A stretch of 64,000 nucleotides of DNA, from positions 134,648 through 198,647 of the forward strand of contig JAUWNJ010000001.1 in the NCBI GenBank assembly GCA_030612725.1. The letters are read 5' to 3'. The position numbers and the translations under genes were made by a program. This stretch comes from Planctomycetales bacterium (GTDB lineage: Bacteria; Planctomycetota; Phycisphaerae; SM23-33). Positions within the stretch are counted from its first letter, which is position 1; each line of letters starts with the position of its first letter. The notes below the pieces were generated by a model. The model was not told where the DNA came from. It did not search any database and worked only from the letters and a program-made list of their open reading frames with translations. This document shows, in pieces, positions 1,461 through 32,060 of the stretch.

Positions 1461-2453
1461 CAATTGTCCCAAATTGTGTTTTTTGATAACCGCTCTGAGC
1501 AGGAGGTAGTTTTTTCCTTTGTAGCGATACACCTCTCCGGATATGTGGAAGATCGCCCCGAATCCCGTTCCTTTATTTGACAGCGTCTCCATTCGCTCCA
1601 GGTATATATTCGGAAGGACTCGCATGGGCGGTTCGCGCAGCGTATTGTCGGCCTCGAATGCGACGCGGGACCATTTTTGCCCTTTCTCGCGGTACAGCAG
1701 TCTTGCCAGCCTGTGAACGGTATTTTTCCCGGGTCCGGAGCGTAGCGTTTTGCCCGATGGTACGCCTGACGTCGAAGGTTCGACTTTGGGCAGTTTCGGC
1801 TTGATGTCCGGTACGATCGGTCGACTTGGCGTCTTGCCGAGCAATTCAGCGGCGACATCATCGGCGGAAGCCCCCGATGGTCTGCTCGTAGCCGGTTGGC
1901 TCGTTGGTTCGACGATGCTCACCACAGGCGGTTCGGCAGGCTTGCTTGTTGTCGTTGTCGTAGCCGGTTCGGTGGTCGGTCTGCTCGTAGCAGCCGGGGC
2001 GGACGAGGTCGATTTCGGTATCAGAAGCACCCGGTGCAGAAGCATGTAGTACCCGCCTCGATACCGGTGGACCTCGCCGGAGAGTTTGAATTTCGCTTTG
2101 GGGTTTTCGGGGAGTTCCTTTTCAAGAGCCTCCAGCGACTCGCACGGAAGAAGATACAGCACGCCCACTCGCGGGTCTTTTATTGTGTTCCACTTATCGG
2201 CGGGGTCCCTGGCGATAGAAGCGACCCGGTCGATAATCATCACGCCGCCCGGAAGCATCGCCCGCCGCCCGCGTGACGGTTTAATCGACGTCGGAAGTGT
2301 AATGGGAACCTCATTCTGGTCGAACGGAGCAATTCGTAGCCCGTTCGCCGGAACACTTGTCGGACTGGTTGAACGGTCGGAAGACTGCGCCGCAGCCCAA
2401 GCCGCTATCGCCAATGCACAAACCATCCAGAATATCCGCATCGGTAACTTCAT
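1458..2453 (-). CDS. Secreted hypothetical protein with a Pro/Thr/Ser-rich linker
   Basis: Signal peptide MKLPMRIFWMVCALAIAAWAAAQS; low-complexity region TSRPTTEPATTTTTSKPAEPP; no recognisable catalytic motifs. Confidence 0.5.
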   Translation of the reverse strand: MKLPMRIFWMVCALAIAAWAAAQSSDRSTSPTSVPANGLRIAPFDQNEVPITLPTSIKPSRGRRAMLPGGVMIIDRVASIARDPADKWNTIKDPRVGVLYLLPCESLEALEKELPENPKAKFKLSGEVHRYRGGYYMLLHRVLLIPKSTSSAPAATSRPTTEPATTTTTSKPAEPPVVSIVEPTSQPATSRPSGASADDVAAELLGKTPSRPIVPDIKPKLPKVEPSTSGVPSGKTLRSGPGKNTVHRLARLLYREKGQKWSRVAFEADNTLREPPMRVLPNIYLERMETLSNKGTGFGAIFHISGEVYRYKGKNYLLLRAVIKKHNLGQL

Positions 2454-2508
2454 AATACCCTATTCCACAGACAACCATTCTACGACCGTCAGGCTCGACT
2501 GTTCAAGT

Positions 2509-2555
2509 CTATTGGCGCACGAGCGCGGGAAGTGCCCACTATATCGTAACCCCCT
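2509..2555. repeat. Left copy of a split palindromic element flanking the PEP-CTERM gene (blocks A+, B-, C-)
   Basis: CTATTGGCGCACGAGCG-CGGGAAGTGCCCAC-TATATC-GTAACCCCC. Block A is a direct repeat of 3700-3716. Blocks B and C are reverse complements of 3673-3699. Confidence 0.55.
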
Positions 2556-2616
2556 GTCGAAGATCCGCCGTGGCGGGGATGCGATTTCGGCAGTCCTTCT
2601 GCCGTCTGGATTAAAC

Positions 2617-3473
2617 TCAGGACCTGCGCCTGCGTAACATTGCCAGCCCGCCGATAGCCAGAAGCGACAGGCTCGCCGGTTCGGGAATGACTGCGACCCA
2701 GGCCTCAGTGTTACCACTGGGGTTGGTCCCGGTGCCCACGATGGTCGTCCCGTCGGTGGATACGCCTGTTGCCTGGGTCAAAGTCCAGCCGGTAAGGTCC
2801 ACGCCCAGGTCCGTCAGTACATCCATGAGGCTTCTCATGCCTTCGTCGGCATCCCAGACGAACGCCTCGGAGCCCGAGGCCGAGGTGCCCTGCCCGACCA
2901 CGACAGACCCGTCGGCAGAGACGCCTTTCGCCTCGCTGGAGAAATCGCCGCCCGGCAGGTCGCCCAAGCCAACCATCCCCCCGCCCGCCGTCCAGCGGAA
3001 CGCCTCCCAGCCCGATGCCGAGATGCTCCTCCCGACCACGACAGACCCGTCGGCAGAGACACCAAGCACCCAGCTGTAGAACTCGCCGCCCGTCAGGTCG
3101 CCCAGGCCAACCATCCCGCCGGCCGCCGTCCAGCGGTACGCCTCCAGGCCCGAGGCCGAGGTGCTCCCCCCGACCACGACAGACCCGTCGGCAGAGACGG
3201 CATACGCGCTGCTGGAGAAATCGCCGCCCGGCAGGTCGCCCAGACCGACCATCCCGCCAGCCTGCGTCCAGCGGAACGCCTCAGGACCCGAGCCCCAGTT
3301 GCCTGTCCCGACCACGACAGACCCATCGGCAGAGACGCCATACGCACAGCTCCAGAAAACACCGCCCGGCAGGTCGCCCAGGCCGGTAAAACTCACCGCC
3401 GCTGAGGCCCGCCCGGCCAAGACGCCCATCAGTATCACCGCCAGTAACAAAACAATCCACTTGCGCTCCATGT
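2617..3473 (-). CDS. PEP-CTERM sorting-domain protein with four internal repeats of about 42 aa
   Basis: Starts MERKWIVLLLAVILMGVLAGRASA (the ORF-track Met at 3651 lies further upstream; the internal Met at 3471-3473 gives a signal peptide). Repeats GLGDLPGGxFxSxAxxVSADGSVVVG. C-terminal PEPASLSLLAIGGLAMLRRRRS is a PEP-CTERM motif plus TM helix plus basic tail. Confidence 0.7.
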
Positions 3474-3672
3474 TCAGTCTCCTTTTCCTTCGTTCTGAAG
3501 ATGTCCCATTTGTCCAACACCGACCCCTCTCTTTTAACTGCACTGCTTCCAAAGCGAGCCGGAGCCATGACGTATAGTATATCACACGTTGTCCCTTTAT
3601 CAAAAATCTCCTCAAAAAATTAGGGATTTTCGAGGTTAAATGGGGGTACAAAAGGCTTCACTCAACTACCCG

Positions 3673-3716
3673 AGGGGGTTACAATGTCTGGGCACTTCCC
3701 TATTGGCCCACGAGCG
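3673..3716. repeat. Right copy of the split palindromic element (blocks C+, B+, A+)
   Basis: GGGGGTTAC-AATGTCT-GGGCACTTCC-CTATTGGCCCACGAGCGG. Together with 2509-2555 it reconstitutes C-B-A-B'-C' if the intervening 1.1 kb is removed. Confidence 0.55.
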
Positions 3717-3735
3717 GTTTTGAGGTAATAGATGG

Positions 3736-3953
3736 CATGATGGATAAATACGAGATAATCATTTTCTGGAGCGAGGAAGACAAGGCATATATCGCCGAGG
3801 TTCCTGAACTACCGGGCTGCATGGCCCACTGGCGACAGTCATGAGGCCGCTTTGGCCAATATCCGCTCGGCAGTGGAATTATGGATTGAAACCGCCAGGG
3901 AATTCGGCGACCCGATCCCCGAACCCAAAGGCCATCGGCTCGTCTTCGCGTAG
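3736..3953 (+). pseudogene. HicB-family (UPF0150) antitoxin remnant with a +1 frameshift; no hicA partner seen
   Basis: MMDKYEIIIFWSEEDKAYIAEVPELPGCMAH then TGA. The next frame continues (G)DSHEAALANIRSAVELWIETAREFGDPIPEPKG, the canonical HicB core. One extra T in CAC-T-GGCGAC breaks the frame. Confidence 0.5.
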
Positions 3954-3987
3954 AAATTAGTCGCTGTGGTTGCGGTGCTCGATCCGA

Positions 3988-4809
3988 TCAATCATCTTTT
4001 TTTGGTTTTTCCAGCAGCATTTTCTTCAGCAGTTTCGGTACGCCCATTTTCAATCGACCGGCGAAAGTAAATTTCTGACGTTGCCTGCTGATGATTCTCC
4101 GGGCGAAGGCCTTTGCTACTCCTTTTCCGTCGGCGCGTGCGCGGACTTTGAACATCGCGGTCTTTCCGGACGGGATGGGTTTCAGGTCCGGCTCGTTAAT
4201 CCGCATAACTACTTCGTCGCCGTATTTCAGAGCGCCGCTGAGTTCCTCCAGCGGTAGTTCGAACGTGTTGGGGTTATCTACTTCGAAGGACAGTTCCATC
4301 CATGACGGCGGGCCTTTGATATACCTGACCTTGCGGAACCGCCAGGACGGTTTCCGAAACGCCGGCATCAGACCGTTGCGAGATACGCGCACAGGTATCT
4401 TCAGGCCTAGAAAATGAAACTTCGACTCGGTGCTGAACCGGTACGGAATTTCCTCTTTCGCGCGAATTTTCGATAACAGCGGCGCCAAATTCGCAAATTC
4501 CACTGAAACCGGTACGCGGACGATTGACGTCTTATTAGCGGGCAAATTCATGACGGGCGTCGGCAGCGCGCCGTGGACGATCTCCGTACCAGCGGACGTA
4601 ACCTGGTAATTCAGGCTCGAAAAATTGAGTTCGAAACCATTGGGGTTGGTTACCTTCATATCGAAGAGAAGATCGATCTTCTTGAAATCGAAACCCCCCA
4701 CGTCGATACTGTGAATCTTGACAATGGGCGGCTTGACGCAGCCGACCGAGACGCTCATCAATAAGGCTGCGACGATTGCGACTGACGCTCTTTGGCGTGT
4801 CGTTCTCAT
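3988..4809 (-). CDS. Lipoprotein with LEA14-like/WHy (LEA_2) domains
   Basis: Lipobox VSVGC. Two repeats resemble the NDR1/HIN1-like late-embryogenesis-abundant fold (IDVGGFDFKKIDLLFDMKVTNPN; SFEVDNPNTFELPLEELSGALKYGDEVV). Confidence 0.45.
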   Translation of the reverse strand: MRTTRQRASVAIVAALLMSVSVGCVKPPIVKIHSIDVGGFDFKKIDLLFDMKVTNPNGFELNFSSLNYQVTSAGTEIVHGALPTPVMNLPANKTSIVRVPVSVEFANLAPLLSKIRAKEEIPYRFSTESKFHFLGLKIPVRVSRNGLMPAFRKPSWRFRKVRYIKGPPSWMELSFEVDNPNTFELPLEELSGALKYGDEVVMRINEPDLKPIPSGKTAMFKVRARADGKGVAKAFARRIISRQRQKFTFAGRLKMGVPKLLKKMLLEKPKKDD

Positions 4810-7690: not shown

Positions 7691-8036
7691 CTCATTCGCG
7701 CTCGCACATTTATTTGTCCGGATGCCTTCGTGTGAACATAAGGTAATATAAAATCACGCCGCCAAAAAGCAAGCGCCGATGGAGCGCAGCATCGTCATCG
7801 GCATAGAGATATTTCCGCGTTGACTGGTCATAAATATTCACGATGTGATCAAAAAAACATCCGACAAAAAATCTTCAACGCATTTGTGCTAAAGTGAAGG
7901 CGCGCTTTGTGTCGAAAAAATTTTTAGTTAAAAGATTTTTTATGTTTGGAAAAAGTAAGCAGTCTGTGTAAAAAACTATTACGTGGTTTAATGGAAAACT
8001 TTTTTGGAAACACCTAACCCGAGAGGAGGTGGCAAA

Positions 8037-8252
8037 ATGGCAAAGAAGAAAGCCAAAAAGAAAGCCACGAAGAAGAAGGTAGCAAAGAAGACGACGACGA
8101 AGAAAAAAGCAACAAAGAAGAAAGTAGCAAAGAAAAAGGTAGCGAAGAAAAAAGTGGTAAAGAAAAAAGTGGTAAAGAAAAAAGCCACGAAGAAGAAAGT
8201 GGCGAAGAAAAAAACCGCAAAGAAAAAAGTAGCGAAGAAGAAAAAGAGATAA
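8037..8252 (+). CDS. Lysine-rich histone H1-like nucleoid protein
   Basis: MAKKKAKKKATKKKVAKKTTTKKKATKKKVAKKKVAKKKVVKKK... (about 45% Lys, tandem KKKAxKKKVA repeats). GGAGG sits 6 nt before ATG 8037. The upstream region 7700-8030 is AT-rich. Confidence 0.7.
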   Translation: MAKKKAKKKATKKKVAKKTTTKKKATKKKVAKKKVAKKKVVKKKVVKKKATKKKVAKKKTAKKKVAKKKKR

Positions 8253-31789: not shown

Positions 31790-32060
31790 GCCTATCCAGG
31801 ATGATAATTGTTTAGTCCCGAAGGGACAAGGGATGGTAGCCGTGGGCGTCAGCCCACGGACATCGGTGATACAACAACTTCAGCCCCGGAGGGGCGCCGG
31901 AAAACTCGCTAATAGACTTCCACTCGTCATACGTTCTTTCCGACGTCCCTTCGGGACTAAATTTTTCCGGCCTTTCTCCGGGGGCTTACGCCCCCGGCTA
32001 CTGTCCTCCGGCCCTTCGGGCCTGTGATAGGTTACGGTAACCGAAAGGGCCGCCGAATGT
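31790..32060. other. Hairpin-dense non-coding region of about 270 nt: candidate structured ncRNA or REP cluster
   Basis: AGTCCCGAAGGGAC and GTCCCTTCGGGACT are mutually complementary 130 nt apart. There are also local hairpins GCCGTGGGCGTCAGCCCACGG, CCGGGGGCTTACGCCCCCGG, GGCCCTTCGGGCC and GGTTACGGTAACC (tetraloop-like UUCG/GNRA). Confidence 0.35.

What the first reader, a model, noticed from the sequence alone, without database searches (positions are those of the whole stretch)
2509..3953. PEP-CTERM repeat-protein gene inserted in a split palindrome with 17-bp direct repeats, next to a frameshifted HicB remnant
The element at 2509-2555 reads A-B'-C' and the one at 3673-3716 reads C-B-A, with A = CTATTGGCSCACGAGCG, B = GGGCACTTCC and C = GGGGGTTAC. 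Deleting the 1.1 kb between the two A copies would restore a C-B-A-B'-C' hairpin. That is the signature of insertion into a palindromic site with target duplication, reminiscent of integron cassette/attC or REP-targeting elements. The cargo is a PEP-CTERM surface protein with four near-identical internal repeats of about 42 aa. Immediately outside is a hicB antitoxin with a single-base frameshift and no hicA, suggesting a decayed mobile or addiction remnant.
Basis: seen in the sequence. Interest (0 to 1): 0.6.

Follow-up and report, generated by a model that had tools for sequence, protein, structure and literature searches.

The report
Fossil transposon cassette carrying surface-protein gene
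The repeats are the two ends and the duplicated target site of an old insertion-sequence derivative that lost its transposase gene and carries a surface-protein gene instead. It landed in the promoter of a decaying toxin-antitoxin locus, and this is a known kind of mobile-DNA relic, not a new insertion mechanism.

Summary
The A, B and C motifs are real and are not chance. Comparison with related genomes changes the reading.

- **Empty sites.** Three related Planctomycetota contigs (L001, L019, L024) have one A copy, no B or C, and no PEP-CTERM gene. So B and C belong to the inserted DNA, not to a palindromic target.
- **Origin of the ends.** The same ends (GGGAAGTGCCCA, 7-8 nt, GTAACCCCC) bound two full-length insertion sequences in unrelated metagenome contigs (L013, 1244 bp; L014, 1510 bp). 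Each encodes a 374-380 aa IS481-like DDE transposase.
- **Structure of the insert.** Window 2526-3699 is IRL, then a HAF-repeat PEP-CTERM gene with its own promoter-like site, then the last ~35 transposase codons, then IRR. It is flanked by a 15-17 bp target duplication. That length is reported for part of the IS481/IS1202 group.
- **Classification.** It fits a mobile insertion cassette (MIC).
- **Age.** Two diverged relatives (L007, L009) share the insertion, so it is old and vertically inherited. Its ends and duplicated target copies are decaying, and no second copy was found.
- **Target.** A is the putative -35 region of the hicAB promoter.
- **hicAB decay.** hicA was deleted independently in different lineages. 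hicB carries an extra T at 3830 only in this window.

The attC/REP and split-palindrome idea is refuted.

The parts
2509..2525 (.). Left copy of the target-site duplication (A). The firmly duplicated core is 2511-2525.
   Evidence: It is 16/17 identical to 3700-3716. A single copy is present in empty sites L001, L024 and L019. It directly follows the conserved 'ttcaagt', which overlaps the -35-like box of the promoter of gene 1458-2453.
2526..2577 (+). Left inverted repeat (IRL, boxes B' and C') plus about 20 nt of adjoining insertion-sequence DNA.
   Evidence: It aligns to positions 1-52 of the L013 insertion sequence at 75%. The L007 orthologue aligns to positions 1-88 of the L014 insertion sequence. 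The 8-nt spacer between the boxes is the IRL type.
2617..3471 (-). Passenger gene: a 284-aa HAF-repeat protein with a signal peptide and a PEP-CTERM sorting tail.
   Evidence: TIGR02913 E 3.7e-28 in 5 stretches; TIGR02595 E 3.5e-4; Pfam PEP-CTERM E 4.6e-4. The reading frame is intact in window and L009 and, as far as the locus reaches, in L007. dN/dS is 0.34-0.47 over the C-terminal 88 codons.
2860..3384 (-). Tandem 138-nt (46-aa) HAF repeat array inside the passenger gene.
   Evidence: Tandem Repeats Finder gives period 138, 3.8 copies, 83% matches. The L009 orthologue is 389 aa against 284 aa here, apparently through additional repeat units.
3576..3603 (-). Promoter-like site for the passenger gene, inside the insert.
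   Evidence: TTGATA-16-TATACT with an extended -10 TG, 10/12 matches, about 105 nt upstream of the start codon. The -10 is conserved in L009.
3599..3672 (+). Remnant of the 3' end of the transposase gene.
   Evidence: tblastn of the L013 and L014 transposases gives window 3599-3700 (42% over 38 aa, E 0.016) and 3647-3700 (72% over 18 aa, E 8e-4). The translation ...LHSTTRGGYNVWALP matches ...LHSTTPGGYDVWALP of L014 and L016.
3673..3700 (-). Right inverted repeat (IRR, boxes C and B).
   Evidence: 45 of 50 nt are identical to the IRR end of the L014 insertion sequence. The 7-nt spacer is the IRR type.
3700..3716 (.). Right copy of the target-site duplication (A). It contains the -35-like hexamer TTGGCC (3703-3708) of the hicAB promoter.
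   Evidence: Empty sites read TTGGCA-17 nt-TAAAAT (L001) and TTGGCA-17 nt-TAGAAT (L024) upstream of hicA/hicB. The promoter role is inferred.
3737..3739 (+). All that remains of hicA: its start-codon region, fused to the hicB start.
   Evidence: An alignment with L019, which has an intact 84-aa hicA, and with L001, which keeps the first codons of hicA, places the deletion.
3740..3953 (+). hicB antitoxin pseudogene, with an extra T at 3830.
   Evidence: The repaired protein hits PF15919 at E 8.6e-12. Orthologues in L001 and L009 lack the T and are intact. The closest protein is 93% identical.

Best explanation
Window 2526-3699 is a relic of a non-autonomous, passenger-carrying derivative of an IS481-like insertion sequence. 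It fits the description of a mobile insertion cassette (MIC).

**Structure.** It keeps the left and right terminal inverted repeats, 50-100 nt of adjoining insertion-sequence DNA at each end, and the last ~35 codons of the transposase gene. The rest of the transposase gene is replaced by a HAF-repeat PEP-CTERM gene with its own promoter-like site, in the opposite orientation.

**Insertion.** A DDE transposase most likely moved the cassette as one unit, supplied in trans by a full-length copy. It entered the putative -35 and spacer region of the hicAB promoter, next to the divergent promoter of gene 1458-2453. Staggered target cuts 15-17 bp apart were filled in, which produced the two A copies.

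**Fate.** The insertion happened before window, L007 and L009 diverged and has been inherited vertically since. The passenger gene is still under purifying selection, while the ends and the duplicated target are drifting.

**The TA locus.** Decay of hicA and hicB is a separate process at the same locus.

**Shown.**
- Insertion relative to empty sites.
- Homology of both ends and of the transposase remnant to full-length insertion sequences.
- No transposase gene in the cassette.
- Shared ancestry of the insertion.

**Inferred.**
- Mobilisation in trans as a unit.
- The staggered-cut mechanism.
- The promoter assignments.
For: **Empty sites.**
- L001, L024 and L019 carry one A copy between the same flanking gene and hicB or hicAB, with no B, C or HAF gene.

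**Occupied orthologous sites.**
- L007 and L009 have the same junctions.
- An independent assembly, L017, reproduces the left junction at 100% identity.

**Parent insertion sequences.**
- The same ends bound complete insertion sequences in L013 (1244 bp) and L014 (1510 bp), an insertion-sequence end in L016 and a solo end in L015. Similarity to the window stops at the GGG tip in every context.
- The transposases match NCBIfam IS481 over the whole model (E 1.9e-30 and 4.5e-27) and are about 26% identical to annotated IS481 transposases on plasmids.
- They are 71% identical to each other.

**End polarity.**
- The 8-nt spacer of IRL and the 7-nt spacer of IRR are reproduced in the window's left and right ends.
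- The interior next to each end is also homologous to the insertion sequences, as is the transposase C-terminal coding remnant.

**Literature.**
- 'Not a few' IS481 members make TSDs of about 15 bp, and the IS1202 group has a 15-17 bp class (PMC10045372).
- MICs are two IS-type inverted repeats without a transposase gene that flank one or more coding sequences. They are 0.7-3 kb long, share regions next to the inverted repeats with the parent insertion sequence, and can be mobilised in trans (PMC6199540).

**Passenger gene.**
- It is intact with dN/dS 0.34-0.47.
Against: - Only this one locus carries the cassette. An exact-pattern scan of 185,579 species-representative genomes found the ends only in L007, at the same locus. 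No near-identical HAF cargo exists elsewhere; the best hit is 69% identical.
- No transposase of this family lies in the 64-kb window. Mobilisation as a unit is therefore not demonstrated.
- The two full-length insertion sequences show no visible target duplication. This may reflect chimeric metagenome assembly across a multicopy element.
- The transposase scores below the NCBIfam IS481 cut-off (106 against 224 bits), and Pfam detects only its HTH domains.
- The termini are GGG...CCC, not the TGT...ACA typical of IS481.
Confidence: 0.75

Rival explanations
1. A complete IS481-like insertion sequence inserted here and made the duplication. Its transposase gene was later replaced in place by the HAF gene through an internal deletion plus gene acquisition. 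The cassette itself never moved.
For: The insert (1174 bp) is about the size of the full insertion sequences (1244-1510 bp). It keeps a genuine transposase 3' remnant. No second copy of the cassette was found anywhere.
Against: It needs two extra, precisely internal events that spare both ends. No relative with an intact insertion sequence at this site was seen. All three occupied sites already carry the HAF gene. The architecture matches described MICs, which are known to be mobilised in trans.
Confidence: 0.17
2. A cassette inserted by site-specific recombination into a pre-existing C-B-A-B'-C' palindrome, such as an attC-like or REP-like site, and split it.
For: The A-B'-C' and C-B-A arrangement is real.
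Against: Empty sites have A only, with no B or C. B and C are ends of transposase-encoding insertion sequences found in unrelated contexts. The junctions lack the integron GTTRRRY core. No other copy of the motif occurs in the window.
Confidence: 0.02
3. The inverted repeats are recombination sites of an invertible switch that flips the surface-protein gene or its promoter (phase variation).
For: Inverted repeats of about 29 bp flank a surface-protein gene together with its promoter.
Against: The orientation is the same in window, L007 and L009. The gene and its promoter would flip together, so inversion would not switch expression. Box C of the right arm is partly deleted in L009. A switch does not explain the flanking direct repeats or the homology to insertion sequences.
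Confidence: 0.02

Closest known systems
Mobile insertion cassettes (MIC231, derived from IS231, in the Bacillus cereus group)
   Same: Two IS-type inverted repeats, no transposase gene and one passenger coding sequence. The size lies within 0.7-3 kb. Sequence next to the inverted repeats is shared with the parent insertion sequence. A target duplication is present (definition in PMC6199540).
   Different: The parent here is an IS481-like element, not an IS4-family element, and the host is a Planctomycetota lineage. The passenger is a PEP-CTERM/HAF surface protein. Trans-mobilisation and multiple copies are not shown, and only one old, fixed copy is known.
IS481 family and the IS1202 group of DDE insertion sequences
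   Same: A single-ORF transposase of about 375 aa with N-terminal HTH domains and a DNGSEF-type catalytic region. It matches NF033577 over the full model length. The element has terminal inverted repeats. The target duplication falls in the 15-17 bp class reported for part of this group (PMC10045372).
   Different: The score is below the curated cut-off, and identity to annotated IS481 transposases is about 26%. The termini are GGG...CCC rather than TGT...ACA. The transposase ORF has no stop codon inside the element and reads through IRR into the flank.
Transporter ISs (tIS): insertion sequences with passenger genes
   Same: IS ends enclose a gene unrelated to transposition (concept in PMC3129680).
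   Different: A tIS keeps its transposase gene. This element has lost it, apart from about 35 codons.
Integron gene cassettes and attC sites
   Same: A single promoter-proximal gene is bounded by imperfect inverted repeats. This resemblance is superficial.
   Different: No R''/L''/L'/R' organisation, no GTTRRRY crossover core and no flanking array. Integron insertion also does not duplicate 15-17 bp of target.
HicAB type II toxin-antitoxin modules
   Same: hicB belongs to PF15919/PF21748 and is 93% identical to intact homologues. The relative L019 has the canonical overlapping hicA-hicB pair.
   Different: Here hicA is deleted down to its start codon and hicB is frameshifted.

Membership tests
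Mobile insertion cassette (MIC) | Two IS-type terminal inverted repeats in the correct IRL/IRR configuration | tested here: met
   Both ends are homologous to the ends of the L013 and L014 insertion sequences. The left end has the 8-nt IRL spacing and the right end the 7-nt IRR spacing.
Mobile insertion cassette (MIC) | No transposase gene, and one or more passenger coding sequences between the inverted repeats | tested here: met
   Only an 18-38 codon transposase remnant remains. The single intact ORF is the HAF PEP-CTERM gene.
Mobile insertion cassette (MIC) | Flanking target-site duplication that proves insertion | tested here: met
   The direct repeat is 15-17 bp. A single copy is present in three empty sites.
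Mobile insertion cassette (MIC) | Mobilised in trans by a cognate transposase, with more than one copy or site | tested here: inconclusive
   Cognate full-length insertion sequences exist in metagenomes. No second cassette copy was found, and no transposase lies in the window. The rest of the genome could not be read.
IS481 family (parent element) | Transposase reaches the curated family model threshold | tested here: not met
   NF033577 aligns over the full model at E 1.9e-30, but the score is 106 bits against a cut-off of 224. Pfam rve was not detected. The element is therefore IS481-like, not a certified member.
IS481 family (parent element) | Terminal inverted repeats with TGT...ACA tips | tested here: not met
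   The tips are (Y/A)GGGAAGTGCCC.
IS481 family (parent element) | Target duplication within the family's range (mostly 6 bp, with a class near 15 bp; IS1202 group 15-17 bp) | tested here: met
   The duplication is 15-17 bp at the window, L007 and L009 locus. The ranges come from PMC10045372. No duplication is visible at L013 or L014.
Integron cassette / attC | attC with R''-L''...L'-R' boxes and a GTTRRRY crossover core at cassette boundaries | tested here: not met
   The boundaries read GAGCG|CGGGAAG and CACTTCC|CTATTGG. The inverted repeats are insertion-sequence ends.
Palindrome- or REP-targeting insertion | The unoccupied target is itself a palindrome | tested here: not met
   The empty sites in L001, L024 and L019 contain A only, and A is not self-complementary.
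HicAB toxin-antitoxin module | Intact hicB with an adjacent hicA | tested here: not met
   The hicB domain is recognised only after the extra T at 3830 is removed. hicA is reduced to its start codon.
HAF-repeat PEP-CTERM proteins (exosortase substrates) | HAF repeats plus a C-terminal PEP-CTERM sorting signal | tested here: met
   TIGR02913 scores 97 bits against a cut-off of 22.65. TIGR02595 scores 21.2 bits against a cut-off of 16. An exosortase in the genome was not looked for.

The most novel reading that the evidence does not exclude
The GGGAAGTGCCC-ended elements may be an undescribed IS481-related family of Planctomycetota. Its features would be a transposase ORF that stays open through the right end and a target duplication of about 15-16 bp. 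Its transposase-less cassettes would act as vehicles that move promoter-equipped PEP-CTERM/HAF surface-protein genes within and between genomes. That would be a transposon route for diversifying exosortase-dependent cell surfaces.
Probability: 0.15. Interest if true: 0.5.

Novelty: new member of a known kind. Interest (0 to 1): 0.33.

Why it matters
- **Reclassification.** A structure that looked like a new palindrome-targeting cassette system is an ordinary, if rarely annotated, class of mobile-DNA relic. This prevents a false lead.
- **A poorly charted insertion-sequence lineage.** The transposase falls below NCBI's IS481 threshold and the termini are atypical. This lineage supplies a clean natural example of the long (15-17 bp) target duplication that is still mechanistically unexplained for IS481 and IS1202 elements.
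- **Domestication of a passenger gene.** A surface-protein gene delivered by a transposon derivative has been kept under purifying selection across species-level divergence.
- **Stepwise decay of a toxin-antitoxin module.** The toxin was lost repeatedly, then the antitoxin was frameshifted.

Tried and rejected
- **C-B-A as a hicA remnant.** In frame +3471 the region reads ...GVTMSGHFPIGPRAVLR**, which looked like a HicA C-terminus. I rejected this for three reasons. Pfam and NCBIfam gave no hit. The neighbouring frame matches the transposase C-terminus LHSTTPGGYDVWALP. Comparative alignment puts the real hicA remnant at 3737-3739.
- **Integron attC or REP models.** Rejected on the junction sequences and the empty sites.
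- **Near-identical copies of the cargo elsewhere.** The protein search found only 41-69% identical HAF proteins, with similarity driven by the repeats.
- **Exact-pattern scan of genome representatives.** It returned the orthologous locus (L007) plus three Clostridia hits with no similarity to the window, taken as chance.
- **Viral contig scans.** Scans for the ends and for the transposase found nothing.
- **Plasmid tblastn.** It gave only distant IS481 transposases at about 26% identity.
- **Rfam.** Nothing was found in 2300-4100.
- **Target duplications at L013 and L014.** None was found with one mismatch allowed and a minimum of 7 nt.
- **Which ends the window carries.** I tested whether both were IRR-type, as in the inner ends of a composite. 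Spacer length and interior homology show one IRL and one IRR.

Full report
**1. The observation**

- A (CTATTGGCSCACGAGCG) lies at 2509-2525 and 3700-3716, 16 of 17 identical.
- B/B' is a perfect 12-nt inverted repeat (2527-2538 against 3689-3700).
- C/C' is an inverted repeat with 12 of 13 complementary (2543-2555 against 3673-3685).
- No other copy exists in the 64-kb window. Shuffles give 0.29 expected hits for the 12-mer tip and 0.01 for the B-C pattern.

Between the elements lies one intact gene, 2617-3471 on the minus strand. It has a signal peptide, HAF repeats (TIGR02913, E 3.7e-28, five stretches) and a PEP-CTERM tail. The internal repeat is 138 nt, or 46 aa, in 3.8 copies at 83% identity. 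That is 46 aa rather than 42, and the copies are not near-identical.

To the right is hicB. After one base is removed it matches PF15919 (E 8.6e-12) and is 93% identical to intact 70-aa homologues.

**2. Empty and occupied sites**

The closest HicB homologue led to L001 (GCA_964449105.1), a syntenic relative. There the left-flank gene is followed by ...ttcaagt-CTATTGGCATATGAGCG-gttttaaggtaaaatag... and then hicB. It has one A copy, no B or C, and no HAF gene.

Two further unoccupied sites show the same thing.
- L024 reads ttcaagt-TTATTGGCACACGGGCG-gtcttgaggtagaat, followed by hicA and hicB.
- L019 (same sequence in the MAG GCA_030642005.1, L020) has a more diverged A, then intact hicA and hicB.

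Two closer relatives carry the insertion at the identical position.
- L007 is a Planctomycetales MAG. Its flank is 87% identical in nucleotides and its flanking protein is 88% identical.
- L009 has a 1435-bp insert, a 389-aa HAF protein and an intact hicB.

An independent Logan assembly of the window's own genome (L017) reproduces the left junction at 100% identity.

The segment 2526-3699 is therefore an insertion that duplicated its target. B and C came in with it. The target was not a palindrome. Deleting the DNA between the A copies gives a single A, not C-B-A-B'-C'. That arrangement would appear only at the joint of a circularised insert.

**3. What the ends are**

An exact-pattern scan of metagenome contigs for the ends returned four loci with no flank similarity to the window.
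- L013 (683-1926, 1244 bp) and L014 (720-2229, 1510 bp) are complete elements bounded by the same inverted repeats. They encode proteins of 374 and 380 aa.
- L016 is an element end at a contig edge.
- L015 is a solo end of about 41 nt.

Similarity between all these loci and the window stops exactly at the GGG tip. That is the signature of a mobile unit seen in five independent contexts.

The proteins have N-terminal HTH domains. They align over the whole NCBIfam IS481 model (E 1.9e-30 and 4.5e-27), though below its curated cut-off. They are about 26% identical to annotated IS481 transposases on plasmids and 71% identical to each other. They carry a WQTDNGSEF motif and a downstream DVE. I read these as the second Asp and the Glu of a DDE triad. 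That reading comes from the sequence pattern, not from a test.

**4. Anatomy of the window's insert**

- **Right end.** 45 of 50 nt match the IRR end of L014. Translation of 3599-3700 gives the transposase C-terminus...LHSTTRGGYNVWALP, against ...LHSTTPGGYDVWALP.
- **Left end.** It matches positions 1-52 of the L013 element. The L007 orthologue matches positions 1-88 of L014.
- **Spacers.** In both full-length elements IRL has 8 nt between the two conserved boxes and IRR has 7. The window's left and right ends reproduce this.

The insert is therefore IRL plus about 50 nt, then a cargo segment of about 1 kb, then about 100 nt of transposase 3' end with IRR. The cargo segment holds the HAF gene, a short 3' region, and a good sigma-70-like promoter on the minus strand (TTGATA-16-TGnTATACT, 3603-3576). 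No transposase homologue exists elsewhere in the window. This is the definition of a mobile insertion cassette (PMC6199540; PMC3129680).

**5. The duplication**

The base after the left copy is C in all three occupied sites, but G in the target. The base outside IRR is A in all five contexts. The element tips may therefore include one more base, and the true duplication is 15-16 bp. It counts as 17 only if the C shared with the inverted repeat is included.

The literature reports that most IS481 members make 6-bp duplications. It also reports that 'not a few' make about 15 bp, and that the related IS1202 group has a 15-17 bp class (PMC10045372). The length that looked exotic is thus characteristic of this transposase lineage.

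One point remains unexplained. L013 and L014 show no duplication. A plausible reason is chimeric assembly of flanks across a multicopy element, but I could not test this.

**6. Age and fate**

- On a tree of the flanking protein, window pairs with L008, whose flanking protein is 99% identical to that of L007. L009 pairs with L018. L010 lies outside both pairs.
- The cassette is present in window, L007 and L009. It therefore predates divergence of about 12-20% at the protein level.
- The duplicated copies have since diverged: one mismatch in the window and two in L009.
- L009 has lost 4 nt of box C in its right end.
- The HAF gene stays intact in window and L009 and in the part of L007 that could be read, with dN/dS 0.34-0.47 in its non-repeat C-terminal part. 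The repeat array differs in length (284 against 389 aa).
- The insert is more GC-rich (67-71%) than its flanks. That may reflect amino-acid composition or foreign origin.
- I conclude that the element is immobilised and its passenger domesticated. That last step is inference.

**7. The target and the hicAB story**

In empty sites, A plus the following 15 nt read as a promoter upstream of hicA/hicB: TTGGCA-17-TAAAAT in L001 and TTGGCA-17-TAGAAT in L024. The cassette landed in the -35 and spacer region and duplicated it. The right copy still precedes hicB as TTGGCC-17-TAATAG.

The state of hicA differs between lineages.

| Locus | State of hicA |
|---|---|
| L019 | intact, 84 aa |
| L024 | apparently frameshifted (one extra base relative to L019, by my reading of the sequence) |
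| L001 | first codons only |
| Window and L009 | start-codon region only |

The deletion end-points differ, so the toxin was lost independently in different lineages. The extra T at 3830 that breaks hicB is unique to the window.

The cassette did not cause that loss.

**8. Comparison and verdict**

The element works like, and fits the structural definition of, a MIC. Its parent is IS481-like but fails two IS481 membership tests: the curated score and the TGT termini. I call it IS481-like only.

Integron, REP and invertible-switch readings fail on the evidence above.

The main open alternative is that a full insertion sequence inserted first and its transposase gene was replaced in place. The available data cannot exclude this, because no second copy of the cassette was found.

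This is a new member of a known kind, of modest interest.

Noticed in passing
L019:3709-3960 (minus strand), L024:114-368, L001:4556-4578, window 3737-3739: A graded series of hicA decay next to a conserved hicB. L019 has an intact 84-aa hicA that the gene caller missed. By my reading L024 has a frameshifted hicA. L001 keeps only the first codons. Window and L009 keep only the start-codon region. The deletion end-points differ, so the toxin was lost independently in different lineages.
   Followed up: partly
window 3988-4809 (minus strand); L010:6145-6969; L018: The LEA_2-domain gene between hicB and aconitase is present in window, L010 and L018 but absent in L009, L001, L011 and L021. L010 and L018 share the same junction (ttcaagt-TAGATACNGNGGCATGGG-LEA_2 stop). 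That junction lacks A, the cassette and hicAB. On the flanking-protein tree, however, L018 is sister to cassette-bearing L009. This suggests allelic exchange or repeated loss at this intergenic hot spot.
   Followed up: partly
L013:635-1759, L014:675-1817, L016:1-191: The transposase ORF of this insertion-sequence family has no stop codon inside the element. It reads through the right inverted repeat, so its C-terminus is set by the flanking DNA (for example CCC|TGA in L016).
   Followed up: no
L013:643-682 and 1927-1966; L014:680-719 and 2230-2269: Neither full-length insertion sequence has a detectable target-site duplication, unlike the cassette in the window. Both IRL-side flanks begin ATG, and every IRR-side flank has an A next to the tip.
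   Followed up: partly
window 3657-3685 (plus strand) and 3610-3635 (minus strand): A promoter-like site (TTCACT-17-TACAAT) lies inside the right inverted repeat and points outwards towards hicB. A terminator-like hairpin with a T-run lies just upstream of the passenger gene's promoter.
   Followed up: no
window 31814-31859 (minus strand) and 31978-32023 (plus strand): Two copies of the Acido-Lenti-1 RNA motif (RF01687, 47 and 52 bits against a gathering score of 37) sit in inverted orientation in one intergenic region.
   Followed up: no
window 8040-8244: A purine-rich tandem repeat (period 15/30, about 5-14 copies, 72-78% matches) lies in an AT-rich stretch. On the plus strand it would encode a Lys/Ala-rich repeat.
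   Followed up: no
window ~7700-7880 compared with L001:7805-9685, L011:3045-4937 and L021:1-905: Relatives carry a ribonucleotide reductase gene between the Peptidase_S9-like gene and the ParA-like region. The window and L010 lack it at this position.
   Followed up: no
window 2617-3471 compared with L009:877-2046: The orthologous HAF passenger genes differ in size, 284 aa against 389 aa. The difference appears to be whole 46-aa repeat units gained or lost. An independent assembly (L017) breaks inside the repeat array.
   Followed up: partly
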